From Trypanosoma brucei (lineage: Eukaryota), in contig CP000070.1 in NCBI GenBank assembly GCA_000002445.1, forward strand, positions 800,001-864,000: 64,000 nucleotides of DNA, given 5' to 3'. Both the position numbers and the translations under genes were made by a program. The notes beneath the pieces were generated by a model that was given only the letters and a program-made list of their open reading frames with translations, had not been told where the DNA came from and ran no database searches. Position 1 is the stretch's first letter; each line of letters begins with the position of its first letter. Positions 281-61,800 of the stretch are shown piece by piece.

Positions 281-1916
281 AATTAACATTAGACTCTTCA
301 CTCTTTGAACAATTATTATTATTATTATTATTTCAAATTAATCGGTGCTGTTATCAGTGTCAGAAGTCGTTTTTTTTTTGCAGTTTTTTCTTCTTGGTTT
401 TCCAGCGAGCGCGATAGGGCAGTAGAGGTTTGCGTGCGTACGTTCTATCTTTCGTTTCAACATTGTGCAAAGTTTGGTGTGTTTTTTGCGGTGGGCACAA
501 CTAATATTATTCACGTTGCCGAGAGAAATTAAAGGAAATGGTTCCTGTAATCGGTAATTCTCAGCGCGGAGCGAAGTTGTGCTGCTGTCCAACTTTTACT
601 TTTTCCTTCTCCGTGTGTGGGTCTGGGTGAGTATGTTACGCAAGGTAGTGGGAATATCGATTGTGGTAAGTTGTTTTATTCTTCAATCGTTCACTTCCCA
701 CCACTATTTCGCACTCACCCGCTTACTGTCGTAGCGATGTCTTATAAAGCAGCGATCGTGTTTTTTTTTTTTTCGTACCACACTGTGACGCGAAAAATGT
801 CCTCTTTGCCGTTGTTTTTCCTTTTTTTTTTTTCAGAGTCTGCGGGAAGTCGTGGGGCGCAGTGGTGGGTTGCCTTTGAAATTTTAGAATATGAAACCGT
901 GAATCCGCGGCTTCGTTATTTTCGTACGTATACGTGTACATACGTGTACATGTCTACATATGAGAAACATCGAGTAACGTTGAATTATTCACATGTTTCT
1001 CTTGTCTCATTGGGTGTGAGAATAACGGCGCCGCGCCACAGAGTTGTCACACCTGTTATTTGTTCCGTGATGCTGCCATTTTTGGTGTGCATCCCCTCTC
1101 CCCTCCTTTCCCTCCCTTTTGTTTGTTTGTTTCATTGACTTTCGATTCGTCGTCACGCGTTTCTTTCCTTTCATCCCGTTACCTCTTCTTGCCAACATTT
1201 ACGGAAAATATCGTTGGCGTTTCGTTTCGATCGCCTTAATTTTCTTTACTTCTCGTTCCTTTTCTTTCCCTTGAATCGTGATAAGCGGTGAGCGTCACTA
1301 CAGTTTAGTTGGTGATGAAAGGAATATCATTTGACCACATTCCGCCAACTGATGTTGTGTGTTGTTTTCTTTCTTCTTTTCCTGCCGCCGCCATACTTGT
1401 GTGTAGCGGTGGGTGTTTATTTGTCTTTTCTTCGTTTTGTTTTGTTGCCGTTGTTTACATGATTTCAAACAGGTGTTGGTCGAAATGTCGTCGCCATGCA
1501 CGGAAGGGTAGGACGAGGAAAAAGGTTGTTTTGGTGGTGGAGTGGAATATTTAGTTGGACATGGGTTGGCAACTTATTTCGGTTTCTGGTAAGCTGCTAA
1601 AGAAACCAACTTCTCGTGTCGCTGCTTGCCTTTATTAGCTCTTGCCCTCTGTCACTCACCTTTTCCTGTCGTTGTGCTCTATCATTCCTATCTCTACTGT
1701 TGCTGTTAGTTTTTATTTATTCGGCTATCATCTGTTGGTAATCCGCGACGCATAGTTAAATTTTGATGTTGTTGTTTTGTGCAGTAATTTGTGTACATTT
1801 AGCGCTTGGGCTATGCTTGGACTGCTCTTTCTTTCTTTTTTTCCTCGCTTCGTATCAACATTTAAGACTTTCTGCTCGCTCTCATCATATATTATCTCGC
1901 CTAGTTTGTTTTGCAG
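281..1916 (+). promoter_or_regulatory. Intergenic region with long polypyrimidine tracts: inferred polyadenylation and trans-splice acceptor zone upstream of the dynein gene
   Basis: T-rich and CT-rich runs occur at about 360-380, 760-830, 1085-1300 and 1820-1850. Their role is inferred from known trypanosomatid mRNA processing; no site has been mapped. Confidence 0.4.
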
Positions 1917-13900: not shown

Positions 13901-16900
13901 TGTGGATTACCTTGTGACACCGAGTCAGAGACTTGAATGGGAGCAGCAGGGTCTTCCAAAAGACAATCTCTGTGCGGAAAACGCAATGATTCTTCACCGT
14001 AGTCGACGATACCCCCTACTCATTGACCCCAGCGGGGTTGCCACCGCATTTCTGCAGAAGAAACACAAAGATGGAACGATGCGTACCACAAGTTTCACGA
14101 AGAGCGATTATCTCAAGCAATTGGACATGGCCATCCGGTTCGGTTACGCACTTATCATAGAAGACGCGGAGTTCATGGACCCCATTATTGGACCACTTCT
14201 AAAGAACGAGATGCGACGTGTGGGAGGGCGCACGATGACGCGACTTGGTGGCCGTGAGGTGGAAACTACTTCTTCCTTTAGTTTGATTCTCATCACGCGT
14301 GATTCGCACTATCAACCACCTCCCGGAATAGCAGGAAGGGTCTGCCTTGTTAATTTTGCCGTGACACTGTCTTCGCTTGAGTCACAGTGCCGTCATCGGT
14401 TGCTGCTTCACGAACGGGCGGATGTCGATGAGCAGCGCGCCCGCGTCCTGAAGGTTCGGGAGGAGTATTCTGTTCGTGTGCGGGTGTTAGAACAGGAACT
14501 GCTCAAGCTGATTGCGGGAAGTGAAGGAAGTATTCTTGAGAATAATACACTGACTGTTGCACTGGAGCGGCTGAAGGGGGAGACAAAGGCGTTGAAGGAG
14601 GGGATTGTAGAGAGTGATGAATTGATGCGATCCATTACCGCTGTTGAAGAACATTACAAGCCACTTGCAACAGCAGTGTCAAAAGTTTACTTTGTTCTAC
14701 GCTGCTTCTCCCAGTTGCATGGATTGTATCAGTACAGTGTGAAGTTCATCTTCCGCGTATTGAATGACGCCCTTGACCAGCTACCCCCGCCTAGCAATTC
14801 CAACGGCGCGCAGCAGGAAGAAGCGCCCGCGGAAAAAAAAGAGGAGGATGCAGCGCGACTGCAAGTACTCACGAGACATGTGTTTTATCTTCTATATCAC
14901 CGCGCGCGGCGGGGCATGTTCGCGCAGGATCATCTTGTTCTTGCCACCGCCCTGGGTAAGGCGCGTAGTGGCATCGCCGATCCCATCGGGCAACAACTAA
15001 CTATTGAAGAGTGGAATCTCTTCGAAAGTGCGTTAGGCGGGCCGGTGGCAAGCACAGGCGTGTCAATACCAGCTGAAAGTATAAAAGGTGCTGACAGGCT
15101 TGACCAACTCCCCAAGATACTGTCTGGGTGCCGTGTGTGCTCGCCGTCTTCAGCCGCGGTTCTCGCGGAGCTGCTGAAGCTACCACTGTTTGAGCAAGTG
15201 CGGGTTTCACTGAATAACCCGGAGCATGGGGAGGCATGGAGAGCATACTTTGCAGCGGTGGAGCCCTACGCCGAGACGATACCTCCCTTTTCCCGAAAAG
15301 TCAAGAATTTCAGTGCCGATGACGCCAATTGCAGCAGTGTAGGTGGAAGCCATGCTGTGGGGCCCACACGCCGTGCGTTTATAACGGCTTTGCTACTTCT
15401 GCACACCCGCCGTGACGCTTTTGTGCCCGCTGCCTCAGAGTTCCTACGACTCTTTTTTGATGGTGCAGACGTGGCAGTGGGAGACGGGCGTGGCAACTGT
15501 GGGGAAAGCGGTTATCGTGCTATCGCTGGCCATGACGGTGCTAAAGGTGGCATGGGCGACTTTGATTCCTTCTTTTCGGCGGAAGTTCTTGATCTTGTTG
15601 CAATTCAGAAGGAGTTGACTAACACAACCCCACTCATATTAGTGGCGAATGCGGGGAGTGACCCAACGGTGTCGCTGGAGGCAGTGGCGAGTGCAATGAA
15701 TGTTCAACTACATACTGCCGTTATGGGCTCTGCAGACAGTACCGAAGCAGCTGAACGGTTCCTCACGACAGCAACGGTGGATGGTGCATGGGTACTACTA
15801 AAGAATATTCACATTGACCGCGCCTTCGCCGACGTTGTTGTGAGGCACTTGCATCGCGTTTTTGCCGGGGATCAGGTACATGAGGGCTTCCGCCTCATTT
15901 TATCCATGGAGGCGAAGGCACAGCATGTGGTTGGCAACCTTGGGGAGAGAGGTTGTGGTGGAGACGTAATAAATGCACGGTCCCCGCTCGACCTTCCTGT
16001 CAGTTTGGTGGAGTCATCAATCGTTGTGGTGTACGAACCACCTCCAGGTATGAAGGCTTCTCTTCTTCAAACTATTGGATCTCTGAGGGCCCCAACCCAA
16101 CAAGCTCCTTATTCTGCCGACATGGTGCGCATTTATCTTACTGCTGCTTGGTTTCACGCAGTGGTTATGGAACGGCTCCTATATGTTCCACTGGGTTGGA
16201 GCACGCGCTATGAAATCAACGACACGGAATTCTGGCACACATTGCAAGCCGTCAACCGTTGGGTGATGACGACGGAGAGCACCTCTGGAGGAAACACTGT
16301 TGGTGATATTGAGGGAAATCAAGTCTGTAGCGCTAACCGCGAGCATTTCCCATGGTTAGCCCTTCAAACCATAATCGGCACGGCTCTCTACGGCGGTAAA
16401 TTGAGCAACGACTTTGACCAATTTCTTCTAAATTCGTTCTGCACGCAGCTGTTTAGCCCCATTATTTTTGAGGACGACAAGTTTTTCGCATTGCTGGAGG
16501 GCCTATGCGTAAATCAGAAGCTTCGACTCCCTTCCATGGACACATTGAATGACGTTTTGGCGTGGGTAAAGTCCCTGCCGGACCCGCAGCCGCTTCGTTG
16601 GGCACGGTTGCCGGCAAGCGCCTCGCGGTTAATGTTAGAAAAGCAGGCGGTTGCTATGTTGGAACGGCTTGCGATTCTGCGATTTGTTGGTGAGAAAGAA
16701 CATAGTGGCCGCAGCATTGTTGACGGTTGCGCCGCCTACTCGGAGGAGTCAACCATACCGCGCTGTCTAACCGAAATGCAGTGGGCGCAGAAGGTTCGGC
16801 TGTTTTGTTCCTCATGGCGCTCCTCGCTAGAACGACTTGTTCCCGCAGGACAGGTCGTGTCGGCACAATCAGCAGAAACGCCGTCAGGGGGGAGGAGCAG

Positions 16901-17789
16901 CGGAGCAGAACGGTGTAAAGAGGAGCCTGTTTCGGTAATGGTCGACAGGGAATATGCCTTTGCAATGGAACGCCTTCATGAGGTTCTTGATGACCTACAG
17001 GTGGTAGAAAACATTTGCTGCGGAACAGGTAAACCAACGGCAGATCAGCGTGCTCTCATCGACTGGCTGTTAAAGGACCAAATCCCGCCGATGTGGGCAC
17101 GGTCCTATTCTTCTCACACAGCAGTGGCAGAACAGTGGATGATAGATTTTGCGCGTCGGGTTTCTCATGCTTTATATCTACGCGGGGCCATACAGAGGGA
17201 GTCGGGTGGCGCTGTATGCCTCAACCTCGGTCTTCTTTTCTGGCCTGAGGCCTTCGTTACTACAACGAAGCAGCAGACAGCCCGCAGACAGAGTCAGCCA
17301 TTGGAGCAACTGCAAATTCAACTTGACCTCATGCCGGAGGAAGATGTGCGAGCACGAGCTGCTAAAGTTGTAAAGGAGGATGATGTCTGGCATATTGTGG
17401 GTCTGACGCTATTTTCAGCCTCCCTCAAGAAGTGTGACACGGCTAGTGGTGGTGCCGGCTATACGTGTGTATTACTGCCTGACTCATCCACGGCACCTTC
17501 AACGCCTGTTGGGGCGGTGATGAGGTGGAGGCCGGTTGTGTTGTCGAGAACCACCACCGCACCAGACGCTGGTTGCTGTATGGCCCCTGCAGCAAAATCA
17601 TCGGTTCTGACACGGCTAGCCTCGCGTGATAAGAATTCTAATTGCCTCATTGTACCACTATACGCGAGCGATCTACGCAGAGCACTGCTGCAAGTTGTGG
17701 AACTGAGGGTGGACATTAAAAACACGCCAATGCACGCATGGTATGAACGGGGGACATGCCTTGTAGCCTGGTCGATGGAAGCCTACTAG
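1917..17789 (+). CDS. Cytoplasmic dynein heavy chain (dynein-1-like), about 5290 aa
   Basis: Single 15.9-kb ORF whose first ATG is at 1917 (the track start at 1911 is a TTG). Four AAA+ Walker A P-loops occur in order: GPAGTGKTE near nt 8464-8490, GPSGTGKT near 9376-9400, GPPGSGKT near 10800-10825 and GASGVGKT near 11841-11867. The AAA1 context LGGSPVGPAGTGKTETVKSLG...CQVGAWGCFDEFNRLEE matches cytoplasmic dynein. A long coiled-coil stalk and C-terminal domain follow. Confidence 0.95.
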   Translation: MMRQEKDKQLCLTADELLASDVVDCISSMMRSATKPQVREALQGVEHEKNGTALHLVVCEYTPTQNLNNEEAATTTCVVAAEDLTTVFFRLMATVSRGVTSPKYMGTGPMTEGSKNVDGGSSMETEGAAALPRVTRCVFITSASGGNSAEDIRNAPSSPRPAPLTLSQLNVHAMEMDQPLGDLQSLLQRVYEPVLRQRREDALRYNLQEFVNSMQCRYHFLTRVNLMQFVHPKLLTVCSVNPTADLHELVGLLHEEGDDVDLDDVFAIWSPCRNLLNVAFEADTADDGNAARPQVINLSEVVGGAPHHGSCIGDNTSRNHGNNNNGGVLEEVSYWQEVRQWINHIRRQLRSREWRLAHYLLRHRVPTSYEREYELHSKLAHSYEQHAKGVLQLLPHINDVNDITTFLVNALRIIEAAARPGAYPRKRCTHFVNCVVHNIMEQFVALADGLDVLHIQPAEKQLQKIGEMMKAIVELQRCLVDGVLSARIDQRDVEGTTVTETRNSSVAGQWCTEVKNLSGFGRCSLLLERMKQLKDFLNEHFHYYRTLAQTFAEGGGSGSTTTSFCRHLAEAYSRFTADVVERGCLWDVSPTGAGKYQRIRDSYSSRVSRIDDRLALHVGISLSNEQERDTYNVTTSTVKANTSTEAKTSDPRRPARGRVDAPTAGGSPLYRAYSCFCVFRREKVLAVLASFRTALREQIDREINDICEEYFGKESCPHIVRATVARLGVTEDVGRMLWERSLQRQLETHMERREEISEHGWRQLLLLRTLEHRWCLNESLARFFGARLQDLVVEGFAAGSEVHGTAYALAFLSLVHSKNELRWSRDPHIQSARQYLDENSPQSLEKARLRLVLLRKGSSWGSKQSEPWDVLNFRDSIAQKLNEHVERWCNIVQSKFLHVDMVEETMAMKGPFLRLSYVERGVGTAGGNSDKNNNFHRNNEGNIDGVSRGEQVLVPNIPQEMYAFLRDFYTLESVQLQEKHKQLFGNIRCFFLKNEARFRIANSFRDLTRVFEEAVGDEEELMAHLITDEYAQVYGCLVDGAKLTWLEEDKLLEFIQRLSCRVYNFCSAASSVRTAVDDVERILQQLHSQTFAAQSIVEKVEKLCGIVKQLGSEGSSREWYVQRIQPRLDAALLLQLQAHLHRWTVEFLSMGRDPRFLDPASCTEEYKLRPLRIRMRVLFKGITLATPEAACRYHWLNILNNSFAWLHAIPALHSSFRRSNHQHPTATPLFGGGSVVEVTAETVYGRLVDCLSSEVLAEPMTAIDKSIQEAFDVEKQWRRGQQLLNLEVGVLQQKLGDDLVKWEEALRHIREFADTLMNHTQPSTLLGGILIVASDAQKELGRKLDNMTQYINSRYREVVSKHLELCHRRITEERTDVEKCDVINSIDDACMFICELPTIYTKLEETGRRIAPLVAAEEYLKNQGLSLPDSGVCVKKVKEEHQAYKDLIARKVKAVELRRPFLRENAKQKGKGLQDDVAELEKSLAELDKQIQLRERQDKQHLEELADSMQERFYDIQKQILVLEKQHDRLTLLCKVLGIQPVDEVRLQSVASRTENLRWVFGHLLEVCRKLNRLSQTPFSEVDPQRLHEDIISLQAEVQEFPPGVRGHPAHNELVQLIEERLAARWIIHELSSRAMMPVVRAERHWSLLRSKLGTQWKLEELTVGDIWRSDPMTRAKIYYEVLDVARGEHRLETKLEQITAFWNNFEFNTTIYKKKHVLIRGWDAVFAQLSDDIDTLQGFHLSPFYSASHIAASVTEWESRLNLLLKVLEVLMGVQRRWVHLDGLFSSNEDIYQQLSSEGMQFDRVTWELWNLMPYRSSPFGSTETAADLENVVVRTQDFLEEKRLLSSLERVDGQLTRVQRALNRYLDRQRRLFPRFFYVGDDDLLETLGNSNNATLIAKHLPKMFTALARLIVKDMGANGQGSAGSAAADLHIVGFACEEGEEVATNRSIRLEGRALHLTLNEVEIVMTQTLRQLTVSAAASLADAGCVTTEWIEAFPLQVVCLAFQVWWAQLQEQALATWKAQQKREPSLAVSRMVSLLDQLALEVTAVGVTPSVRRASEELITLAVYQRDVSRLIELKNVTAAEDFEWMRILRLYVVAPDTYSKKGDAATDVGRPRKSGVVLANEVDYPEVHCRMADASLIHGFEYIGWYRRLVQTPLTDRCYLAMTQALHTRLGGSPVGPAGTGKTETVKSLGAQLGRHVVVFNCTDTFDFSAIGRILMGLCQVGAWGCFDEFNRLEECVLSAVAQQIRSIQEALRGDLHSVNLSRQQVPLKTNVALFITMNPDFADRSQLPGNLKQLFRTVTMVAPDREAIAEVMLFAQGFRTAESLSRKVVPLFDLCREQLSRQSHYDFGLRALKSVLVIAGEAKHADCKRNAVHVPETASSATAVEDDSNVNSRECELMLGSLINNIVPRLISEDVILFYPLLRDFFPGRPVPDVFESLLRSTIEEVCQDTHYTPTPAWVEKIYQLYRTRKTRHGLMLVGPSGTGKTSCWKTLLRVMARLSTQEGHNDFDEGDLASPSRRSRGRPLEAHAYVIDPKAMTKAELFGVFEATTREWKDGIFTDILRRIVNNSLDTNSTQQQHWIIFDGDVDPLWVENLNSLLDDSKIYTLPNGERLSLPPSVRIVFEVQDLRYATPATVSRCGMVWFSHGTVPVSCLLNRHLTTFLRAPMIDKRGGKRIVEVCDDHEEMQSRLCGGHFTLHRAAASSGTTTLASTQRELTTSDGDVRTSRENNKAHDSLTEDALNRSARNSENVPESPPPRTPHSFVSAERDILELQVFMVGVWTTAFAKGGLLERAFEIIHTERYRGQGIMEHNDLQILRSVQSLLLDGIWSMWQVREKWGALPTERVVRSYAEKLLNYAVFWGFGAALNNELRRQLLDDIGFQLLGQPRDLTLMDVEPDPVHGTWRTTRERVQPVDVDPEDVGFSDVIIPTVDACRNRTLLEAWITGGDAVILCGPPGSGKTILVTSLLRDSFTHESVFLNFSSGTRPENIIRALEQYCSVHNHAVHGPIMTPTSGKRLLLFCDEVNLPALDQYGTQPVVQFLRQLVERKGYYRSRDNVWVTVEGVQVIGACNPPTDKGRVSLSHRFLRWAPVLFVDFPTEESLHVIYSSYCRAMLSFSSRLQRYHPKCLAAAMVDVYTASQSRFNTWQQPHYVYSPRELTRWIRALRGAILSWSDQQRCELTVEELVQLAIHEGLRIFQDRLVQNEEREWAHRKVVECFARHFTDVTSSPAQPPLLFSSIVNGVYMKQTKSELVQYVEEKVRTFCEGEGDTELVVLDTMVDHVVRIDRVLRQPSGHMVLVGASGVGKTIITRLVAWMNGMSVFRIDVNRGYQLADYERDLREVLRRAGCGLERICFIFDDSNAMETGFLEYINALLPSGEIPGLFDGDKWAKLMDDIRASVEEQQSLKATSGTTQHLPRVLQHHQHEREGNELHNSARTSLFDRSSTMNRRDFGAPMTGGGYDFDRHPLLLNETAGPMLTSDYIDITSEQVLYRWFVNNVRRNLHVVFVTDPSTKEFADRVVTSPALFNRCTINWLGEWDRTTRAQLAQKLTQNMDVMFSCRESFSGSEDTSRKALTEALSAIHEATEEVNSTARQRNANSGTFITPRHFSDLLQQLKLLYEEKKGRSMEQLTHLRSGLAKLATTSEEVGQQQTQLREHEVLLDERSAKAQAMLERIVSETERTKQEKQEAEQLRQQLKEEEDLILADRARVEQQLSEAAPALREAEEGLNSIKQEYLREMRAYTTPPTMVKRVLETVLVVMGERRAGEWDVIKHYVRRDDFIASVKAFQARDVTEEAVQTVRGMLQEDGFTYEAAMRASKAAGPLLQWVTAQINYAIVYAAVQPLRSRIDQITITQGAKQAQLERTETEISTLEMSLQQLKEDYQSMAEEIATCKSTMGVIASRCDRATKLLQQLLEERDRWGAESLGFDSEVSVLLGNCILAAASLTYFGYFDEYTRQSLLLPVWVQQLKNFKIRCTEEHSSGFVDYLVTPSQRLEWEQQGLPKDNLCAENAMILHRSRRYPLLIDPSGVATAFLQKKHKDGTMRTTSFTKSDYLKQLDMAIRFGYALIIEDAEFMDPIIGPLLKNEMRRVGGRTMTRLGGREVETTSSFSLILITRDSHYQPPPGIAGRVCLVNFAVTLSSLESQCRHRLLLHERADVDEQRARVLKVREEYSVRVRVLEQELLKLIAGSEGSILENNTLTVALERLKGETKALKEGIVESDELMRSITAVEEHYKPLATAVSKVYFVLRCFSQLHGLYQYSVKFIFRVLNDALDQLPPPSNSNGAQQEEAPAEKKEEDAARLQVLTRHVFYLLYHRARRGMFAQDHLVLATALGKARSGIADPIGQQLTIEEWNLFESALGGPVASTGVSIPAESIKGADRLDQLPKILSGCRVCSPSSAAVLAELLKLPLFEQVRVSLNNPEHGEAWRAYFAAVEPYAETIPPFSRKVKNFSADDANCSSVGGSHAVGPTRRAFITALLLLHTRRDAFVPAASEFLRLFFDGADVAVGDGRGNCGESGYRAIAGHDGAKGGMGDFDSFFSAEVLDLVAIQKELTNTTPLILVANAGSDPTVSLEAVASAMNVQLHTAVMGSADSTEAAERFLTTATVDGAWVLLKNIHIDRAFADVVVRHLHRVFAGDQVHEGFRLILSMEAKAQHVVGNLGERGCGGDVINARSPLDLPVSLVESSIVVVYEPPPGMKASLLQTIGSLRAPTQQAPYSADMVRIYLTAAWFHAVVMERLLYVPLGWSTRYEINDTEFWHTLQAVNRWVMTTESTSGGNTVGDIEGNQVCSANREHFPWLALQTIIGTALYGGKLSNDFDQFLLNSFCTQLFSPIIFEDDKFFALLEGLCVNQKLRLPSMDTLNDVLAWVKSLPDPQPLRWARLPASASRLMLEKQAVAMLERLAILRFVGEKEHSGRSIVDGCAAYSEESTIPRCLTEMQWAQKVRLFCSSWRSSLERLVPAGQVVSAQSAETPSGGRSSGAERCKEEPVSVMVDREYAFAMERLHEVLDDLQVVENICCGTGKPTADQRALIDWLLKDQIPPMWARSYSSHTAVAEQWMIDFARRVSHALYLRGAIQRESGGAVCLNLGLLFWPEAFVTTTKQQTARRQSQPLEQLQIQLDLMPEEDVRARAAKVVKEDDVWHIVGLTLFSASLKKCDTASGGAGYTCVLLPDSSTAPSTPVGAVMRWRPVVLSRTTTAPDAGCCMAPAAKSSVLTRLASRDKNSNCLIVPLYASDLRRALLQVVELRVDIKNTPMHAWYERGTCLVAWSMEAY

Positions 17790-34809: not shown

Positions 34810-36328
34810 TCGAAAGGCATGTTGTATACGGAAGGACGGAGGGAGGGAGTTACAGTGGAAGAACGTCTTTTAAGAAGTGTGAACGTTTATCGCGCGTGCT
34901 TGGGGATGAGAGAAGTTCCTTGTGCATTGTCAATTTGTCTTGTACGTGGGGATGCTGCTGTCACACGCTCTTTTTCTCCACCTTCTAAGAAAGGAGTACC
35001 ACCGATAGGATTTTAGGATGAAGGAGTGCTGGAGGTGCCTAAACGAATTAAATAGCTTAGTAATATGAGGAAGGGAAGGAACACCTTAAATGTTCACGAA
35101 TCACCACCGGGGCACAAAGCCATAGCCGCTACCCACAAATCACGCTCAACGCGCCTCTAACGACAAAGCGAAGGGGTGCTGCAAACGGCTGGCGATAAGT
35201 GGAAATCACAACTACTATTGGGGCCGGCGTTGTGGGTTTTTTCAGTGTGCTTTCGCGTTGTGATGACAATGAGTTCCACTACCATTCACCAACCATCCAC
35301 AAAAGAGGGACGATACGCGGAGTCCCAAAATGAGGAGGACTAATGCGCGATCACTCTCCTCCTCGCGTTTTCGGAAGGGGCGAGGAAAAACTACTCTCAT
35401 AGACAGTTTTCAGCGCCGTCAAACCATGCCGGCGCAGCCGCGGAAACTTCCTAAGGTAACATCTTTCCTCTCCTCCTCCCCCATTTTCCAGAGCAGCCGT
35501 GCGCCTCCTCAGTGACGAGAAGAAAAAAACACCGTCAGACATGGGAACCTCTCTTGCCCAAAGACCGATGTAGATCTGTGACCTACGGCATGCCGTTTAC
35601 CTCCACCAAAAGTGACAAAATCACACCGTGAAATCCACTTTTTTTTTTTTCGACGGCGCTAAGCTACCCCCAGAAGCCAGCCGACCCGACTGACAGACAA
35701 CCACCAGCGAAACATGACCCCTCCTCTGCATCTTAGAAGTCACCTCCATTTCCAGTGCAATTCTTACCGTGCGAGAGAACGAAAGGAACTAGGACCACCA
35801 TTTGCAAAAATGGATCGCCCAAAGCACGAACAGCTTCGACCCAGCTTGCGGGTGGGTTAGGATAGTTGCAATTCCTTCTTTTGGACTATCATCTAAAGCG
35901 CACTAAAACAAAGATTCGGGGGAAGTGAAAACCCACGTCGTGACAGGTCGTTATTAACCTTAACTCTACAACTGTCGTTGCCTTAACCAGTAGGGTTAGT
36001 CCTGTCTCCTTTTATGGTTGGCATTATTCGCTTCTTCTTTTGTTGGGTAGCTAAATTTAAAAAAAAATCTCCGGAGTTTAGCGCAGTTGGTTATTACAGT
36101 TTTCCTTTACACCCCGCTCCATTTAATTCGATTTCCTAGTGTCCGGGTGTCGCCTGCCGAACGTGCATCTGTCCCTAGCTCTCCCCCCCCCCTCTCGCTG
36201 GAAACCTATGTTAGTCTCATCCCCTTATCCCCTCCCCCGAAATGTGTTTTTATTCTCTCTTTTTCCTTCCCCCTCCGTAATATTAATCAACAATACGAAG
36301 CAGGACGGTTTCGGCGGTAACATTCCCT
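34810..36328. terminator. Convergent strand-switch region: inferred RNA pol II transcription termination zone between the plus- and minus-strand polycistronic units
   Basis: Every confident gene below 34.8 kb is on the plus strand and every one above 36.3 kb is on the minus strand. The interval has no long ORF or recognisable domain. I scanned it for a tRNA and found none. In trypanosomatids such regions are marked by base J and histone H3.V, which is established knowledge, not visible here. Confidence 0.6.
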
Positions 36329-37990
36329 TCAAAGCATTCGCAACAATAGAACTGCGGAACAAAGTGCAGCGGCACGAACACCCGAATGTGCTGCCGGATT
36401 GGACTCCGCTCTCATGACAGGTCTTCGCGCCGGTTCTGCAGAATAGTTGGATTTCAGTCGTACCTCCTCTTGTCCCCTTGAGGTGGATTCTTCGTTCACT
36501 CTCCTCGACAACTCCAAACTGTTCAGAATCTCCCCGATCAGTTCCTCGTGAAGCTGGTCATTAGTGAGTTCTGCCTCTTTGTGCCCTATGCATTTCGTCA
36601 ATTCATCCGCGGTAGTTTTTATTTTTTCCATAACCGCATTTTTTGCTTCTTCGAAACGCGCAAACAGGCGGATGACATCCCCAAATATACTCACTTTATT
36701 GGGATCTTCAGTCCACCGCACTGCACCGTAGGAAGTGACGTCACCGTACTCTCCCCCCTTTACATTTAGTTTGCCTTCCACACTTGATGCGAAATTCATC
36801 ACTCCACCACCCCACGTGAAGCTGTGACTCAATGACCCACCTTTTAATAAACCGTCTGTTGCCGTCCTCATCAAGTTGCAACCCCTGTCTTCATTTCGTT
36901 CAATGATGCTCTCCGCACCCAAGCTACTGAAGGAAATGGATGATAGCGCTTCGTGGAGTTGCAAGTTTTTCTCTGCCGACTTCGTTACATGTGAATCCTC
37001 GATTTTGTAAAGGGTTTCAGGTCCAATTGTTCCACGAAAACATTCTTGCAACTTGTCGTGCACCGCTGGCCTGCTCCCTCCCACGCTTATGCAAAACTGC
37101 GACGTCGTGCGTGCCGCCTGTGCAAATGCAAAAATCCACTCTTCCAGTCTTCCGGCTGCTAACCCAGCGGCGGCTGCTGCTAGCGCCGATGCATTCCTCA
37201 TTTCCTCTAACTCCTGCTGGAATGTAAACTCATTCTTCAATACTGTTTTCAAGAGTGTCCTGATGTCTTTACAATCTTTCTCACTAGAAGGTACGCTGTT
37301 TCGCATTACCGATAACTGCAACTGCGCGCTTTTGATCTTCAAATCTGACAGTTTCTTCATAACCGCAGCACTCCCGCTGTTTACTCTGTGTGCTACCCCT
37401 TTAAGATATGTCGATAACTCACACACTTTATTAGCGGCTGTCGCGTTTAGTGCATTCCTTTCATAATAATTTGCACGTGTTTCTTTTCCCAACAGCGCCA
37501 ACAGCACGAACCAAAACCTCATTTTGTTCTCTTTATTTAATTATACTTGAGCTTTCACCTTCGTTACTGAGTAAAAACTAAATCACTCGTGCTATTCTTG
37601 ACACAGATTACCATTGTGGTGACAGTCCGGGAGAATACATTCTCAGTCCCATTTTGCTTTGTCCTACCAAACTCTCATTATAATAAACACCACTGCCTCA
37701 CACGCGTAGGTAGCAGCTACGTCCCCCCAACACACACACACACACACAACATTCCCCTCAATTGCTCACTTGAAAACAAATAGCAACAGTAATAACACAC
37801 ACACCGCAACAAATTGTACCTCAAATACTTGTTTCCTTCCCTACATCCGAACCATCTTATCCAGCCTCCACTCGACACAGTGTTTTGAAGGGAATAAAAA
37901 CCACTTCCAGGATATTGCTAACCAACAACCCTCCTTCTCGTTAATTAACGCCCTTTTCAACCGATTCTCTTTCGGTGTAGATGATACCGA
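35773..37990. repeat. Copy A of a roughly 2.2-kb tandem duplication carrying the surface-protein gene and its flanks
   Basis: 35773-37990 and 38158-40373 are near-identical by direct reading, apart from one replaced segment of about 80-90 bp and a 1-bp difference in a C-run. They are separated by a unique spacer of about 167 bp (37991-38157). Confidence 0.9.
36329..37522 (-). CDS. GPI-anchored, alanine-rich, predicted helical surface protein resembling the VSG / haptoglobin-hemoglobin-receptor (HpHbR/GARP-type) group; copy A, intact
   Basis: 397 aa. Has an N-terminal signal peptide (MRFWFVLLALLGKETRA), six spaced Cys, Ala-rich helical segments and N-glycosylation sequons. The C-terminus is ..AAHS|GVRAAALCSAVLLLRML, a Ser followed by a 17-residue hydrophobic GPI signal. 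Family assignment is inferred from architecture only. Confidence 0.7.
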   Translation of the reverse strand: MRFWFVLLALLGKETRANYYERNALNATAANKVCELSTYLKGVAHRVNSGSAAVMKKLSDLKIKSAQLQLSVMRNSVPSSEKDCKDIRTLLKTVLKNEFTFQQELEEMRNASALAAAAAGLAAGRLEEWIFAFAQAARTTSQFCISVGGSRPAVHDKLQECFRGTIGPETLYKIEDSHVTKSAEKNLQLHEALSSISFSSLGAESIIERNEDRGCNLMRTATDGLLKGGSLSHSFTWGGGVMNFASSVEGKLNVKGGEYGDVTSYGAVRWTEDPNKVSIFGDVIRLFARFEEAKNAVMEKIKTTADELTKCIGHKEAELTNDQLHEELIGEILNSLELSRRVNEESTSRGQEEVRLKSNYSAEPARRPVMRAESNPAAHSGVRAAALCSAVLLLRML

Positions 37991-38157
37991 TCATCCCTTG
38001 CAGCTTCATACCACCCTACCCTTCATGGCAGCGCCTTGTCGCTTACTTCTAGCTCTGCGTCCGTGTATTATAACCAAGCGGTAGGTAAAACCAACAACCA
38101 CCAAAAAGATAAGAAAAATAATCCTCATTTAAAACCCCCAAAGTTGTACTTTCCTCA

Positions 38158-40373
38158 ATAAACTAGGACCACCATTTGCAAAAATGGATCGCCCAAAGGA
38201 CGAACAGCTTCGACCCAGCTTGCGGGTGGGTTAGGATAGTTGCAATTCCTTCTTTTGGACTATCATCTAAAGCGTACTAAAACAAAGATTCGGGAGAAGT
38301 GAAAACCCACGTCGTGACAGGTCGTTATTAACCTTAACTCTACAACTGTCGTTGCCTTAACCAGTAGGGTTAGTCCTGTCTCCTTTTATGGTTGGCATTA
38401 TTCGCTTCTTCTTTTGTTGGGTAGCTAAATTTAAAAAAAAAATCTCCGGAGTTTAGCGCAGTTGGTTATTACAGTTTTCCTTTACACCCCGCTCCATTTA
38501 ATTCGATTTCCTAGTGTCCGGGTGTCGCCTGCCGAACGTGCATCTGTCCCTAGCTCTCCCCCCCCCTCTCGCTGGAAACCTATGTTAGTCTCATCCCCTT
38601 ATCCCCTCCCCCGAAATGTGTTTTTATTCTCTCTTTTTCCTTCCCCCTCCGTAACATTAATCAACAATACGAAGCAGGACGGTTTCGGCGGTAACATTCC
38701 CTTCAAAGCATTCGCAACAATAGAACTGCGGAACAAAGTGCAGCGGCACGAACACCCGAATGTGCTGCCGGATTGGACTCCGCTCTCATGACAGGTCTTC
38801 GCGCCGGTTCTGCAGAATAGTTGGATTTCAGTCGTACCTCCTGTCACTTTATTCCTAACCGCCCAAACCCCGCACTGAGGTCCCACTTCACAGCAACTCC
38901 AGATAGTTTTGTATCGCCTTGAATTGCCGTTCGTGAAGCTGGTCATTAGTGAGTTCTGCCTCTTTGTGCCCTATGCATTTCGTCAATTCATCCGCGGTAG
39001 TTTTTATTTTTTCCATAACCGCATTTTTTGCTTCTTCGAAACGCGCAAACAGGCGGATGACATCCCCAAATATACTCACTTTATTGGGATCTTCAGTCCA
39101 CCGCACTGCACCGTAGGAAGTGACGTCACCGTACTCTCCCCCCTTTACATTTAGTTTGCCTTCCACACTTGATGCGAAATTCATCACTCCACCACCCCAC
39201 GTGAAGCTGTGACTCAATGACCCACCTTTTAATAAACCGTCTGTTGCCGTCCTCATCAAGTTGCAACCCCTGTCTTCATTTCGTTCAATGATGCTCTCCG
39301 CACCCAAGCTACTGAAGGAAATGGATGATAGCGCTTCGTGGAGTTGCAAGTTTTTCTCTGCCGACTTCGTTACATGTGAATCCTCGATTTTGTAAAGGGT
39401 TTCAGGTCCAATTGTTCCACGAAAACATTCTTGCAACTTGTCGTGCACCGCTGGCCTGCTCCCTCCCACGCTTATGCAAAACTGCGACGTCGTGCGTGCC
39501 GCCTGTGCAAATGCAAAAATCCACTCTTCCAGTCTTCCGGCTGCTAACCCAGCGGCGGCTGCTGCTAGCGCCGATGCATTCCTCATTTCCTCTAACTCCT
39601 GCTGGAATGTAAACTCATTCTTCAATACTGTTTTCAAGAGTGTCCTGATGTCTTTACAATCTTTCTCACTAGAAGGTACGCTGTTTCGCATTACCGATAA
39701 CTGCAACTGCGCGCTTTTGATCTTCAAATCTGACAGTTTCTTCATAACCGCAGCACTCCCGCTGTTTACTCTGTGTGCTACCCCTTTAAGATATGTCGAT
39801 AACTCACACACTTTATTAGCGGCTGTCGCGTTTAGTGCATTCCTTTCATAATAATTTGCACGTGTTTCTTTTCCCAACAGCGCCAACAGCACGAACCAAA
39901 ACCTCATTTTGTTCTCTTTATTTAATTATACTTGAGCTTTCACCTTCGTTACTGAGTAAAAACTAAATCACTCGTGCTATTCTTGACACAGATTACCATT
40001 GTGGTGACAGTCCGGGAGAATACATTCTCAGTCCCATTTTGCTTTGTCCTACCAAACTCTCATTATAATAAACACCACTGCCTCACACGCGTAGGTAGCA
40101 GCTACGTCCCCCCAACACACACACACACACACAACATTCCCCTCAATTGCTCACTTGAAAACAAATAGCAACAGTAATAACACACACACCGCAACAAATT
40201 GTACCTCAAATACTTGTTTCCTTCCCTACATCCGAACCATCTTATCCAGCCTCCACTCGACACAGTGTTTTGAAGGGAATAAAAACCACTTCCAGGATAT
40301 TGCTAACCAACAACCCTCCTTCTCGTTAATTAACGCCCTTTTCAACCGATTCTCTTTCGGTGTAGATGATACC
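38158..40373. repeat. Copy B of the roughly 2.2-kb tandem duplication
   Basis: Same alignment as copy A. Similarity ends at about 40373, where gatgataccg is followed by cgactacc rather than the atcatccc that follows it in copy A (about 37990). Confidence 0.9.
38888..39907 (-). CDS. Copy B of the surface-protein gene: same first 324 codons, then a divergent 3' segment that terminates early (..DQLHERQFKAIQNYLELL*) and lacks the GPI signal; possible pseudogene or soluble variant
   Basis: Identical to copy A from the ATG through ..LTNDQLHE. The copy-A segment at 36480-36557 is replaced in copy B by unrelated sequence at about 38869-38957, which gives a stop at 38888. The GPI-signal coding sequence is still present and intact downstream of the stop, at about 38705-38868, but is untranslated. 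Confidence 0.5.
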   Translation of the reverse strand: MRFWFVLLALLGKETRANYYERNALNATAANKVCELSTYLKGVAHRVNSGSAAVMKKLSDLKIKSAQLQLSVMRNSVPSSEKDCKDIRTLLKTVLKNEFTFQQELEEMRNASALAAAAAGLAAGRLEEWIFAFAQAARTTSQFCISVGGSRPAVHDKLQECFRGTIGPETLYKIEDSHVTKSAEKNLQLHEALSSISFSSLGAESIIERNEDRGCNLMRTATDGLLKGGSLSHSFTWGGGVMNFASSVEGKLNVKGGEYGDVTSYGAVRWTEDPNKVSIFGDVIRLFARFEEAKNAVMEKIKTTADELTKCIGHKEAELTNDQLHERQFKAIQNYLELL

Positions 40374-41228
40374 GCGACTACCGTTCGCCACAACTGTTGT
40401 GGTTGCTTCAAGTGGTGGTGAGCAAAGCGTTAAGGTATCACTACAATTTGAGGAGAACAAGAGGTCATCTTTTATTATACTGTGCGCTCCAACAGCGCTT
40501 CCTTGTACACAAATTATGTTTGCTAATTTCCTGTCCTTGAGGAGCTCCCTATTCCACAACGCGACACCAGTCTCAGTACAACTTTCCCTTCTTGAAGGTA
40601 CGTTTGCGATTGCGTCACGGGAACACGAAAGTAGCAACAACATTTTTTTTGCTTCACTCCTCCAGTGGACCTATTTGGTACTAATGCTTTTTGTTAACAC
40701 GTTGTCAAAAGGTTGCGGCATCCCATACCCCGAAGCACGCATCTGCATGATCCCCTAACCAACGGCGTACGAATAAGGCGATGCATTTGTTAACGCATGT
40801 TCGTTTGCATGTTTCCTCGCACTTCTGGGAGCGTGAGGTTGACGCGCCTCACCCGATCACTGCCGCACTATCAGCGCAGACGCAGTAACTCTAAAGGAGG
40901 AAGTGTGCCAACACATGTGTGAGGAAAGAATGGCAGTTCTTAAAGCTATGCCCCTAGTAGCTACAGTGGGGCCTCACACCTCCCGTGTGGTCAATGTTTT
41001 GTGCTTCGCTTCTGCAGTTGAATCACACTTGTCCAGTAAAAAAAAAACGGACGGAAGAAAGGAAGTAGATTGAGGACAGCACGGAGAGTGTAACAAAGAA
41101 ATTCCACAGACGTAGACACGCCTTCTTTTCAGCGCAAATCCCTCGGCAAGGGATTCCTACCTTCAGTGCATGCCCAACACAAACAATAACAAGTTACAAC
41201 ACCACCGGAAACAAAAAAAAACGTCCAC

Positions 41229-58887: not shown

Positions 58888-61800
58888 TCAATGGTGCGCC
58901 CATGGCCCTCCCAAATGCGTTGTTGGGCAACCGGTTGCGTCGCCCTCGTCCTCATCGTCTTCACCTTCCTCAACAGAGCGCAAAAGCGATATCTCACGCA
59001 AAAGCTCCTTTGCACTCGTGGCAGAAACCTGACAACCACGAATGCGCGAGTCCAGATCCGTCATCAGTCCACCTATGTTGCGATTTAGCTCATCCACCAC
59101 ATCGTCGTGTTGTCTCCCTTTAGACTGTAATTCGACCATAAGTGCCTCTTTTTCACGCTTCAAACGCTCAAGCTGATGGCGCATCGAGCTAATGATATCT
59201 GTCCCACCCACGGCCAGATTGCTTGCAGACGGTACAGTCACCGCTGAGGTGGTGGAATTGCCAGTCTCTCCGAGATGCTCTGACGATGTCCAGGGGAGGG
59301 GAACGGGCATACCACCCTGTAGTTCCTCGATTCTGGCCTCCAGTTGTTGCATGACTGCCTCCACCTCACGCATCTCGTCGTCCTTAGCGTCTTGCAGGTC
59401 AAAGAGTTCCTGTTCACGGGCCTCCAGGGCCATCAACGCCGCCTTCTCCGCTGCTCGGGCTCCTTCAAGGACATTAACAAACTCATCGAGTTTACCAATG
59501 GTGTCAGTGTATTCAAACCCCTTCTCGTCCAACTCAAGCAACAGTGCAGCAATTTTTCTGTTAAGTGCATCAAGATCCTCTTTGTGAGTGATCTCCCGCT
59601 GTTCTAACTCTTCCCTCAGGGCAGCGTTCTCTTCGCTAAGTTTCTTAACCTCCTGTTCAAGTTCACCTACGAGATAAACGCCACTCATTAACTCTTCAAC
59701 CTTTCCACGGGCCACCTCCACGTGCGAACTTCGTGCCTTTTCAAGCATGTTGAACAGTGAGAGAAGCATCTCGTCACGGAACTTTTTGTCCCTATCTTGG
59801 GTGCAACGAAGTTCAAGTAACTCTTCCTCACGGGCAAAAAGCTCACTGCGCACCGTGCACTCAGCCTGACGAGCCTCATCCAATAGTACGACCATCTCCT
59901 CCATATTCTCCAGCATTTCGGTGTGTTCTGTGGCCCGCTCCTCAAGTTCGTCAAGTAAGTCACCTTCACGTTTCGCGCGAATACGGTCACGGTTGAGGAA
60001 CCCAACGACCAATAAGCACTGCAGCGAAGACAAAGAAGAGCGTTCAATAACCAAACGAGACAAGACCTCATCAACGAAAACACCCTGCTCATCAACCATG
60101 ACACCGCAGGCACGCCGCAAGAATGAAGACATCGTCAAATTGCCGCCACCAGCATCGTTAGTCCCAATACTACTGCCCAAAAGCAGCCGCTGCGTTTCCC
60201 TGAATGGGTAATGCTGAAGCCGTTGAGCAATTTCCGAAGGATGAATGCTTGAAGGATGGGTGACATCAAATTCAACCACACGACCACTCGGAGTGAACGT
60301 TACATTACTCACACAATCCCTGTAGACACGACATGCATTAGCAGCATCAACAACAACAGCACAACGTAACTCTTCCGGTTTATTCTTCAGCAACTCATCT
60401 AACCTCTCACCTTGAAGTTGAACACACTGAGAACTTACCATGCAATCTCCCTCCATCGAAGCCATCCACCGAGAATCATGTTTGCGCTCCTCCTCGCCGC
60501 CACGCGAAGGCTCATTCAACGCTTCCTCTAAGTCGTCCAGAGCGTTCGACATCAACACAGAAGGGCGATCATTGTGCGAAGAAGCGTCCACCACATCGAC
60601 ACCACTCCTCAGTTTTTTCAAAGCATCTACAGCTTTACGAAGCCCATCGCTCTGAGATACCAATTCATTGGTCTTGCGCTCATTCACAGCCTGCAGTTCC
60701 ATCACCTGCTCCTCCATATCACGAAGTCGTCTTTGTTGCTTGTCCAACTCATCTACCCTCAGTTCATCAGTGCCCCGCAATTGTTCATTCTGTGTCAGAA
60801 ATTCTTTCAGACGGTCACCAAGTTCCTGAAGTAGTTCGCCCTGAACAACAAGTTCATGAGATTTAATATCAAGTTCCTTCCGCAACTCGTCGTTTTCCGA
60901 AGATATCTCAGAGAGCTTCAGACGCAATTCCTTCACATCAGATAAAAGACATTCGATTTCTTTAGAATTTTCATCATCAACACTACGGAGATCGATATTT
61001 TCCCGCTTCACAAGAATCAACTCATTTTTGATAACACCAATACCATCACCGTCACCAGAAACATCCACATCAGCACTCTTCTCCTTCAAAAGATATTCAC
61101 CATCAGAATCAATTTTCATAGCACCGTCCTTCGCATCCCGAGAAACATCACGATCATCATTACGTAAAGAAAAAAGTTCGTTACTTCGTCTCAGTTCCTC
61201 ATTCTCAGTGCGTAGTTCAGCAAGTTGCTCCTCCATCTCATGAAGTTTCTCATTCTGCACATCAAGTTCACGTGCCTTGTCCCCTTCAGTATTGCGAAGC
61301 TCCTCATTCTCAGCGCGTAGTTCAGCAAGTTGCTCTTCCATCTCATGAAGTTTCTCATTCTGCACATCAAGTTCACGTGCCTTGTCACCATCAGTATTGC
61401 GAAGCTCCTCATTTTCAGCGCGTAGTTCAGCAAGTTGCTCCTCCATCTCATGAAGTTTCTCATTCTGCACATCAAGTTCACGTGCCTTGTCACCATCAGT
61501 ATTGCGAAGCTCCTCATTTTCAGCGCGTAGTTCGGCAAGTTGCTCCTCCATCTCATGAAGTTTCTCATTCTGCACATCAAGTTCACGTGCCTTGTCACCA
61601 TCAGTATTGCGAAGCTCCTCATTTTCAGCGCGTAGTTCAGCAAGTTGCTCCTCCATCTCATGAAGTTTCTCATTCTGCACATCAAGTTCACGTGCCTTGT
61701 CACCATCAGTATTGCGAAGCTCCTCATTTTCAGCGCGTAGTTCAGCAAGTTGCTCCTCCATCTCATGAAGTTTCTCATTCTGCACATCAAGTTCACGTGC

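What the first reader, a model, noticed from the sequence alone, without database searches (positions are those of the whole stretch)
38705..38957. Segment replacement in copy B removes the GPI anchor signal but leaves its intact coding sequence stranded in the 3' UTR
Copies A and B are identical across the coding region except for one block. In A it is about 78 bp (36480-36557) and in B about 89 bp (roughly 38869-38957), with no similarity between them. The B-specific block introduces a stop, so the protein ends ..ERQFKAIQNYLELL. The sequence immediately downstream in B still encodes the complete A-type C-terminus and GPI signal (..SNYSAEPARRP..AAHSGVRAAALCSAVLLLRML) without a lesion, but it is no longer translated. 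This looks like a recent cassette insertion or segmental gene conversion, the kind of mosaic event known from VSG repertoires. It would create either a fresh pseudogene or a secreted, non-anchored isoform beside an anchored one.
Basis: seen in the sequence. Interest (0 to 1): 0.7.

Follow-up and report, generated by a model that had tools for sequence, protein, structure and literature searches.

The report
Chromosome-7 ESAG7/ESAG6 transferrin-receptor gene pair
The two near-identical genes are the already catalogued non-telomeric ESAG7/ESAG6 pair of Trypanosoma brucei; the block that removes the lipid-anchor signal from one copy is the normal tail of ESAG7, the anchor-less transferrin-receptor subunit, so this is not a fresh accident.

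Summary
Two tandem minus-strand genes are 100% identical over 1444 bp. They then differ in one short island, 77 bp in A (36469-36545) and 88 bp in B (38843-38930). After it they are 99.1% identical over 683 bp. B stops inside the island, and the 140 nt after it are base-for-base identical to A's last 46 codons plus stop, which include the GPI signal.

The window is T. brucei TREU927 chromosome 7. A is XP_845948 (397 aa, ESAG6-type) and B is XP_845949 (339 aa, ESAG7-type). This is the published Tb927.7.3250/3260 pair at a strand-switch region.

B's tail (ERQFKAIQNYLELL*) is homologous to the tails of expression-site ESAG7 proteins (EEFEAIQKYLGSL*). ESAG7 is by design the GPI-less partner of GPI-anchored ESAG6 in the transferrin receptor. 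Published primers show ESAG6-like sequence directly after the ESAG7 stop in expression site BES1 too.

The island is not unrelated sequence. Its first 45 nt align in frame at 56% identity.

Verdict: already known, low interest. The one unusual point is that both copies share one ligand-binding body, which is more ESAG7-like than ESAG6-like.

The parts
38888..39907 (-). Copy B: ESAG7-type gene (339 aa; XP_845949.1; the ESAG7-type member of Tb927.7.3250/3260). It has a signal peptide and an A-type VSG-like domain but no GPI signal.
   Evidence: ORF. Exact match to P0001 / XP_845949.1. PF00913 at E = 2e-10.
36329..37522 (-). Copy A: ESAG6-type gene (397 aa; XP_845948.1; the ESAG6-type member of the pair) with a C-terminal hydrophobic GPI-signal-like tail.
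   Evidence: ORF. Exact match to P0007. PDB 6SOY chain A (ESAG6) at E = 5e-180. Tail hydrophobicity.
38843..38930 (-). B-specific island (88 bp). 38888-38930 encodes the ESAG7-type tail (R)QFKAIQNYLELL plus the TGA stop. 38843-38887 is 45 nt of B-specific post-stop sequence holding two more stops in B's reading frame.
   Evidence: Boundaries, translation, homology to the BES1 ESAG7 ORF end. No second copy in the window.
36469..36545 (-). A-specific island (77 bp) encoding (E)ELIGEILNSLELSRRVNEESTSRGQ, the ESAG6-type linker between the shared body and the GPI tail.
38703..38842 (-). Stranded ESAG6-type tail in B's 3' region: 45 codons (EVRLKSNYSAEP...LLLRML) plus stop, 100% identical to A 36329-36468, out of frame with B's ORF.
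36329..36468 (-). The translated counterpart in A: the last 46 codons plus stop, including the GPI signal (first codon shared with the island).
38931..40374 (-). 100%-identical tract, B side: 977 nt of CDS plus 467 nt of 5' flank. It matches A 36546-37989.
36546..37989 (-). 100%-identical tract, A side.
38161..38842 (-). 99.1%-identical 3' tract, B side. It matches A 35787-36468 and carries six differences, all 188 nt or more beyond the island.
36002..36328 (-). 3' flank of A, homologous (about 75% identity) to the iron-responsive ESAG6 3'UTR of BES1. The same sequence follows the stranded tail in B (about 38376-38702). The BES1 poly(A) sites map to A ~36007-36027 and B ~38381-38401.
   Evidence: using the BES1 sequence from S1 File of PMC6312234. 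The supplement is machine-read text, so the identity figure is approximate.
34810..36328 (.). Convergent strand-switch region. Plus-strand genes end at 34809, and the ESAG7-to-ESAG6 pair is the last part of the minus-strand gene array. No tRNA genes.
   Evidence: [quoted passage not shown]

Best explanation
This is the non-telomeric ESAG7/ESAG6 tandem pair of Trypanosoma brucei TREU927 chromosome 7 (Tb927.7.3250/3260). The genes are paralogues of the two subunits of the trypanosome transferrin receptor.

Copy A is ESAG6-type, with a C-terminal GPI-attachment signal. Copy B is ESAG7-type. A short diverged tail brings in a stop and a frame change, so the product lacks the GPI signal and can be membrane-attached only by dimerising with the anchored partner, giving a dimer with one GPI anchor. 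The island is therefore the functional switch that defines ESAG7 versus ESAG6, not damage.

The ESAG6-type tail and the ESAG6-like 3'UTR are kept downstream of the ESAG7 stop. They would become part of the ESAG7 3'UTR if B is polyadenylated where BES1 ESAG6 is (inferred).

The perfect identity on both sides of the island is best explained by recent gene conversion between the tandem paralogues. The conversion tracts would end at the island where homology ends, and conversions that erase the island may also be selected against. On this view the island is old and the flanks are young.

Shown: the identity of the genes, the anatomy, the homology of both tails to their expression-site counterparts, and the homology of the 3'UTR. 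Inferred: the direction and timing of conversion, the inclusion of the stranded tail in the ESAG7 mRNA, and expression and function of this particular pair.

The confidence given covers the whole statement. The identity of the genes is near certain; the 'old island, young flanks' mechanism is about 0.7.
For: - Identity. Both products are exact matches to XP_845948.1 and XP_845949.1 of T. b. brucei TREU927, on a 2,205,233-bp contig. The nearest relatives are ESAG6 (72-73% identity over 100% of the query) and ESAG7 (78-80% over 83-85%). PDB 6SOY chains A and B, ESAG6 and ESAG7 of the transferrin receptor, hit at E = 5e-180 and 2e-166.
- Literature. [quoted passage not shown] It says ESAG7 is 57 aa shorter than ESAG6 and has no GPI signal. 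Here the difference is 58 aa.
- ESAG7 tail. All 15 expression-site ESAG7 proteins examined end ...EEFE(A/V)IQ(K)(Y/N)L..., and 13 of them stop after three more residues. Copy B ends ERQFKAIQNYLELL*. The DNA aligns with the BES1 ESAG7 ORF end given in PMC11858757.
- Stranded tail elsewhere. The 30 nt that PMC11858757 uses as the 3' homology arm for BES1 ESAG7 read AATGGAGTAAAGGCGAATTCAACTATACTG. This contains the ESAG6 'FNYT' codons, so the stranded ESAG6-type tail is also present in an expression-site ESAG7.
- Age of the island. The chromosome-7 tails are about equally diverged from their expression-site counterparts: E6 block 10/25, GPI tail 27/47, E7 tail 8/14 residues identical. The bodies are 78-80% identical. 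Gene order, ESAG7 upstream of ESAG6, is the same as in expression sites (PMC2567434).
- Conversion. There are 0 differences in 1444 bp on one side of the island and 0 in the first 187 bp on the other. Six differences follow in the remaining 3' flank (Fisher p = 0.001 for 0/1444 against 6/683).
- Function of one anchor. PMC5426795 shows experimentally that GPI valence sets the receptor's fate, that homodimers do not bind transferrin, and that ESAG7 carrying the ESAG6 C-terminus works together with ESAG6.
- 3'UTR. The chromosome-7 3' flank is about 75% identical to the BES1 ESAG6 3'UTR, which confers the iron-starvation response (PMC6312234). The native ESAG7 3'UTR is needed for the same response (PMC11858757).
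Against: - The two chromosome-7 genes have identical ligand-binding bodies. In expression-site pairs ESAG6 and ESAG7 differ there. At 21 diagnostic body columns the chromosome-7 body is ESAG7-like at 11, ESAG6-like at 5 and neither at 5. Because published homodimers do not bind transferrin, this pair may not form a working transferrin receptor, and 'functional switch' may not apply to this locus.
- I could not align expression-site DNA, because no trypanosome DNA collection is available in these tools. The evidence that expression-site ESAG7 genes also carry the stranded tail rests on one 30-nt primer arm.
- RNA-seq and ribosome-profiling signals reported for Tb927.7.3250/3260 could be cross-mapped reads from expression-site copies.
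- The direction of conversion is inferred, not shown.
Confidence: 0.8

Rival explanations
1. Recent patch import. A single chromosome-7 gene was duplicated recently, and a short segmental gene conversion from an unlinked ESAG7-type or ESAG6-type donor then replaced about 80 bp in one copy, creating the second isoform.
For: The flanks are identical or nearly so, as expected soon after a duplication. Mosaic ESAG6/7 genes exist in expression sites: BES7 ESAG6a in PMC2567434, and P0018 with an ESAG7-like body and an ESAG6 tail.
Against: - The island matches no known ESAG7 tail closely (8/14 aa against expression-site ESAG7), so the donor would have to be an unknown lineage as divergent as the chromosome-7 pair itself.
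- Conversion from a donor 15-25% divergent would normally co-convert flanking differences. None is seen within 1444 bp and 187 bp of the island.
- Both chromosome-7 tails share N-x-L-E-L (NSLELS and NYLELL), where expression-site ESAG7 has K-Y-L-G-S or similar. This suggests the two tails have resided together for a long time.
- The ESAG7-to-ESAG6 order matches expression sites, which fits transposition of the pair as a unit.
Confidence: 0.1
2. Assembly artefact. The tandem repeat was mis-assembled, or reads from the two copies were merged into one consensus, so that the block or the perfect identity is not real.
For: A 2.4-kb tandem unit with a 1444-bp perfectly identical stretch is the kind of region where consensus merging can hide real differences.
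Against: - The B island is a genuine ESAG7-type tail, homologous to independently sequenced genes from other strains. Mis-assembly cannot produce that.
- The two units differ at six further sites and in both islands, so the assembler did separate them.
- Both genes are in the reference annotation and in published analyses.
Confidence: 0.04
3. Decaying relic. The pair is a dead-end copy transposed from an expression site and has no function. The stranded tail and the intact ORFs persist only because conversion between the copies and limited elapsed time have not yet disrupted them.
For: - The location is at the end of a gene array at a convergent strand-switch, outside any expression site.
- Both copies share one body, which is unlike functional heterodimer subunits.
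- The GPI tail carries an Arg in its hydrophobic stretch (LLLRML against LLLGVL).
- The tails are far more diverged than the body.
Against: - Both ORFs are intact, with signal peptide and all six body cysteines, although about 20% of residues differ from expression-site copies. By inference, that much change without a stop or frameshift suggests purifying selection.
- Mean hydrophobicity of the tail (2.11) lies within the range of expression-site ESAG6 tails (1.76-2.44).
- The ESAG6/ESAG7 distinction has survived homogenisation of everything around it.
Confidence: 0.15

Closest known systems
Expression-site ESAG6/ESAG7, the heterodimeric transferrin receptor of T. brucei (PDB 6SOY/6SOZ)
   Same: Full-length homology (72-80% identity). 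Same signal peptide. Same lengths (397/339 aa here against 399-402/338-343 aa). Same ESAG6-type GPI tail and ESAG7-type short tail. Same tandem order, ESAG7 then ESAG6. Homologous 3'UTR.
   Different: The pair is not in a telomeric expression site. It lies in the chromosome core at a convergent strand-switch. The two bodies are identical to each other, whereas expression-site ESAG6 and ESAG7 bodies average 84% identity and differ at 21 diagnostic columns in the ligand-binding region. The tails are strongly diverged (40-57% identity). The post-stop part of the island appears roughly 30 nt longer than in BES1 ESAG7, judged from one primer arm.
ESAG6/ESAG7 mosaics: natural BES7 'ESAG6a' (P0018, CAQ57372) and the engineered E7^G (ESAG7 fused to the ESAG6 C-terminus)
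   Same: Copy A is likewise a largely ESAG7-like body joined to an ESAG6 tail and GPI signal.
   Different: Copy A's body is a mixture (11 ESAG7-like, 5 ESAG6-like, 5 unique diagnostic columns) rather than a clean chimera, and it sits beside an ESAG7 with the same body.
T. congolense Fam15 transferrin-receptor-like genes, GPI+/GPI- tandem pairs
   Same: Tandem pairs that combine one GPI+ and one GPI- member. The two classes look more alike within a species or locus than between, and PMC3605285 attributes this to concerted evolution.
   Different: Different species, subtelomeric location and much deeper divergence (p = 0.604). Not compared by sequence here.
Procyclin-associated genes PAG1/2/4/5 (Fam14)
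   Same: Non-telomeric relatives of ESAG6/7 in T. brucei, descended from A-type VSG.
   Different: They form a separate clade next to the procyclin loci. They did not appear among the hits to copy A.

Membership tests
ESAG6/ESAG7 transferrin-receptor family (Fam15 of Jackson et al. 2013) | Full-length sequence homology to ESAG6/ESAG7 | tested here: met
   E = 1e-163 to 1e-176 against ESAG7 and ESAG6 clusters. PDB 6SOY_A and 6SOY_B at E = 5e-180 and 2e-166.
ESAG6/ESAG7 transferrin-receptor family (Fam15 of Jackson et al. 2013) | A-type VSG N-terminal-domain homology | tested here: met
   PF00913 at 41 bits against a cut-off of 22.1, in both copies.
ESAG6/ESAG7 transferrin-receptor family (Fam15 of Jackson et al. 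2013) | ESAG6 member carries a C-terminal GPI-attachment signal | tested here: inconclusive
   Copy A's tail aligns with ESAG6 GPI tails (27/47 identical). Its last 14 residues have mean Kyte-Doolittle hydrophobicity 2.11, against 1.76-2.44 for ESAG6. No GPI predictor or experiment was available, and the tail has Arg where most ESAG6 tails have Gly (LLLRML).
ESAG6/ESAG7 transferrin-receptor family (Fam15 of Jackson et al. 2013) | ESAG7 member is about 57 aa shorter, ends in the ESAG7-type tail and has no GPI signal | tested here: met
   339 against 397 aa. The tail ERQFKAIQNYLELL* aligns with EEFEAIQKYLGSL* of expression-site ESAG7. At DNA level it aligns with the BES1 ORF end.
ESAG6/ESAG7 transferrin-receptor family (Fam15 of Jackson et al. 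2013) | Tandem GPI-/GPI+ pair, ESAG7 upstream of ESAG6 | tested here: met
   On the minus strand, B (38888-39907) precedes A (36329-37522). This is the usual expression-site order per PMC2567434.
ESAG6/ESAG7 transferrin-receptor family (Fam15 of Jackson et al. 2013) | Subunit-specific ligand-binding regions that differ between ESAG6 and ESAG7 | tested here: not met
   The bodies of A and B are 100% identical. At 21 diagnostic columns they are 11 ESAG7-like, 5 ESAG6-like and 5 neither.
ESAG6/ESAG7 transferrin-receptor family (Fam15 of Jackson et al. 2013) | Heterodimer binds host transferrin | not testable with these tools
   This needs expression and binding assays. Published homodimers do not bind transferrin (PMC5426795).
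Expression-site-associated gene in the strict sense | Located in a telomeric bloodstream expression site just downstream of its promoter | tested here: not met
   The pair is flanked by housekeeping genes (dynein heavy chain, kinase, WD40 proteins, GTPase) at a convergent strand-switch in the chromosome core. PMC3605285 describes it as lying outside the expression sites.
   No donor exists in the window, and the rest of the genome could not be searched. The segment is a diverged homologue of A's own block and of the ESAG7 tail, and both ORFs are intact. This argues against a pseudogene-forming mosaic event.

The most novel reading that the evidence does not exclude
The chromosome-7 pair could be a working, non-telomeric receptor-like dimer whose two subunits differ only in the roughly 80-bp tail island. 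If so, selection at this locus acts only on GPI valence (one anchor per dimer), while gene conversion freely homogenises the ligand-binding body. The untranslated ESAG6 tail plus ESAG6-like 3'UTR behind ESAG7 would be kept because it gives both subunit mRNAs the same iron-responsive regulation. This would be a natural experiment that separates the 'one anchor' requirement from the 'two different binding faces' requirement of the transferrin receptor.
Probability: 0.15. Interest if true: 0.4.

Novelty: already known. Interest (0 to 1): 0.15.

Why it matters
The finding matters little as a discovery. The gene pair, the missing GPI signal in ESAG7 and the role of concerted evolution in this family are all published.

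It is a clean illustration of two points:
- At the DNA level ESAG7 is not an ESAG6 with its C-terminus deleted, which is how PMC3605285 phrases it. It has a short diverged island with a stop and a frame change, and the ESAG6 tail and 3'UTR are still present downstream.
- The distinction between the two subunit types can survive complete homogenisation of everything around it.

For annotation, copy B should not be called a pseudogene, and the identical 3' regions should be expected to give identical regulation.

Tried and rejected
- Looked up the contigs encoding P0005, P0001 and both window proteins to obtain independent assemblies and expression-site DNA. Nothing was on record, so no DNA-level comparison with expression-site ESAG7/ESAG6 loci or other strains was possible. 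The other DNA collections hold phage, plasmid, E. coli, prokaryote or metagenome sequence and were not used.
- Searched the window for a second copy of the post-stop part of the island. None was found.
- Scanned for tRNA genes at the strand-switch. None was found.
- Considered a foreign or mobile cassette. Rejected because the island aligns in frame with A's block and with the ESAG7 tail.
- Considered stop-codon read-through restoring the GPI signal. Rejected because there are three in-frame stops and a frame offset.
- Considered published expression data for Tb927.7.3250/3260 as evidence that this locus is expressed. Not relied on, because reads from expression-site copies may cross-map.
- Did not run structure prediction, because the sequence match to the solved receptor is unambiguous.
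Full report
**What is in the sequence**

Two ORFs lie in tandem on the minus strand: copy A at 36329-37522 (397 aa) and copy B at 38888-39907 (339 aa). blastn of the two units gives 100% identity over 1444 bp (A 36546-37989 = B 38931-40374). This tract covers 977 nt of coding sequence and 467 nt of 5' flank. A second tract gives 99.1% identity over 683 bp (A 35787-36468 = B 38161-38842).

Between these tracts lie the only non-matching segments, 77 bp in A (36469-36545) and 88 bp in B (38843-38930).

B's reading frame runs 43 nt into its island and ends ...HERQFKAIQNYLELL*. The 140 nt after the island (38703-38842) are base-for-base identical to A's last 46 codons plus stop. They would read EVRLKSNYSAEPARRPVMRAESNPAAHSGVRAAALCSAVLLLRML*. 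In B this tail lies behind three in-frame stops and in a shifted frame, so read-through cannot restore it. All six differences between the units lie in the 3' flank, 48 nt or more beyond A's stop.

**One correction to the observation**

The blocks are not devoid of similarity. Their first 45 nt align without gaps and in frame at 25/45 identity (p = 5e-5 against shuffles). The residues are EELIGEILNSLELS in A and ERQFKAIQNYLELL in B, with 6 of 14 identical. The island is a strongly diverged homologue with indels in its second half, not a foreign cassette.

**What the genes are**

- Both products carry the A-type VSG domain (PF00913).
- A database search shows copy B is identical to a TREU927 'expression site-associated gene (ESAG) protein' on a 2,205,233-bp contig. 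The next hits are ESAG6 (72-73% identity over the full length) and ESAG7 (78-80% over 83-85%).
- The cluster look-up shows A = XP_845948.1 and B = XP_845949.1 of T. brucei brucei TREU927.
- The solved transferrin receptor (6SOY chains A and B, ESAG6 and ESAG7) matches at E = 5e-180 and 2e-166.
- Jackson et al. [quoted passage not shown] They state that ESAG7 is 57 aa shorter than ESAG6 and lacks the GPI signal.

The window agrees with that description. Plus-strand genes end at 34809, and the pair closes the minus-strand array. The neighbours are housekeeping genes: a dynein heavy chain, a kinase, WD40 proteins and a GTPase.

**What the island is**

I aligned 15 ESAG7 and 17 ESAG6 proteins from expression sites of several strains and subspecies. 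Every ESAG7 diverges from ESAG6 at the same point, after ...NDQ(L/I)YEEF. All continue E(A/V)IQK(Y/N)L, and 13 of the 15 stop three residues later. Copy B ends ERQFKAIQNYLELL*, which is the same tail with one extra residue.

At DNA level B's tail aligns well with the last 41 nt of the BES1 ESAG7 ORF, as printed in the primer table of PMC11858757. That table also gives the 3' homology arm for BES1 ESAG7. Its reverse complement is AATGGAGTAAAGGCGAATTCAACTATACTG, which contains the ESAG6 codons for 'FNYT'. An ESAG6-type tail therefore sits directly behind the ESAG7 stop in an active expression site as well. The variants ending ...GFGKME* (P0014, P0015) fit that same downstream sequence (inference).

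The island is thus the normal, family-defining ESAG7 tail, and the stranded ESAG6 tail appears to be a family feature. For expression sites the evidence is thin, resting on one 30-nt arm.

**How it most likely works**

ESAG7 is the anchor-less subunit and ESAG6 the GPI-anchored subunit of a heterodimer with one anchor. Tiengwe et al. (PMC5426795) showed the following:
- Valence decides fate. [quoted passage not shown]
- Homodimers do not bind transferrin.
- ESAG7 fused to the ESAG6 C-terminus still works together with ESAG6.

The island therefore acts as a valence switch rather than a lesion.

Downstream of A's stop, the sequence is about 75% identical to the BES1 ESAG6 3'UTR taken from the supplement of PMC6312234. 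That element confers the iron-starvation response, and the native ESAG7 3'UTR is required for the same response. B carries the same sequence behind its stranded tail. If B is polyadenylated at the equivalent site (about 38381-38401), both mRNAs would share this 3'UTR. This step is inferred.

**Which part is old and which is young**

I favour the reverse polarity, for five reasons:
- The chromosome-7 tails are all about equally and strongly diverged from their expression-site counterparts. The E6 block has 10/25 residues identical, the GPI tail 27/47 and the E7 tail 8/14. The bodies are 78-80% identical. Both tails therefore look like long-term residents.
- The two chromosome-7 tails share N-x-L-E-L, which expression-site ESAG7 tails lack.
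- The flanks carry no co-converted differences. There are 0 in 1444 bp on one side and 0 in the first 187 bp on the other, and six further out (Fisher p = 0.001 for 0/1444 against 6/683).
- The ESAG7-to-ESAG6 order is that of expression sites.
- Jackson et al. invoke concerted evolution by recombination between tandem duplicates for this family.

Recent gene conversion between the paralogues, with tracts that stop where homology stops, explains the pattern. Selection against losing the ESAG6/ESAG7 distinction may also contribute. A recent patch import from an unknown, equally divergent donor is not excluded, because the rest of the genome could not be searched.

**What is unusual about this pair**

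Expression-site ESAG6 and ESAG7 bodies are on average 84% identical. They differ consistently at 21 columns in the ligand-binding region. The chromosome-7 copies share one body, which is ESAG7-like at 11 of those columns, ESAG6-like at 5 and unique at 5. Copy A therefore resembles the natural 'ESAG6a' mosaic of BES7 (P0018; PMC2567434) and the engineered E7^G.

Whether such a dimer binds transferrin is unknown, and the published results on homodimers argue caution. Reported bloodstream-form-enriched mRNA and translation signals for Tb927.7.3250/3260 might reflect cross-mapping from expression-site copies.

**Limits**

No trypanosome DNA other than the window could be retrieved. The following remain untested: expression-site loci at DNA level, other strains, a genome-wide donor search and dN/dS. 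GPI-signal competence was judged only by alignment and hydrophobicity. The BES1 3'UTR was taken from machine-read supplement text, so the 75% figure is approximate.

**Verdict**

The feature is the known ESAG7/ESAG6 dichotomy at the known chromosome-7 pair. It is neither a new pseudogene nor a VSG-style mosaic event. Novelty: already known. Interest: low.

Noticed in passing
window 61196-63526: A 105-bp tandem repeat with 22.2 copies at 98% identity. It lies inside a 1657-aa minus-strand ORF (58888-63861) that carries a FAZ1 conserved domain (PF23398). The long ORFs in other frames and on the opposite strand here are by-products of the repeat.
   Followed up: partly
window 36546-37989 / 38931-40374 versus 35787-36468 / 38161-38842: Differences between the two gene units are unevenly spread: none in 1444 bp 5' of the island and six in 683 bp 3' of it, all 188 nt or more from the island (Fisher p = 0.001). 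This suggests conversion events of different ages on the two sides.
   Followed up: partly
window 37990-38160: A 171-bp segment lies between the end of A's 5'-flank homology and the start of B's 3'-flank homology and has no counterpart in the other unit. It is the junction of the tandem arrangement. Its origin was not examined.
   Followed up: no
window 36329-37522 and 38888-39907 (protein columns 207-269 of the alignment): Both chromosome-7 copies share one ligand-binding region that is a mixture of ESAG7-like (11), ESAG6-like (5) and unique (5) states at the 21 positions that separate expression-site ESAG6 from ESAG7. The stretch IIERNEDRGCNLMRTA is identical to that of two expression-site ESAG7 proteins (P0017, P0019).
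   Followed up: partly
window 34810-36328: A convergent strand-switch region of about 1.5 kb between the two gene arrays, with no tRNA genes. It contains homopolymer runs, for example a T run near 35640.
   Followed up: no
window 37738-37756 and about 40120-40140: A short (CA)n microsatellite in the shared 5' flank of both genes, seen in the sequence.
   Followed up: no
window 1911-17789: A 5292-aa plus-strand ORF encoding a dynein heavy chain (AAA_6, DHC_N2, microtubule-binding stalk and other domains). It is ordinary core-chromosome content.
   Followed up: partly
protein database, cluster of P0001: The 90%-identity cluster holding the two chromosome-7 proteins has only the two TREU927 members, and no T. 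b. gambiense or other-strain orthologue appeared in the search. This could reflect database coverage or real absence of the pair elsewhere.
   Followed up: no
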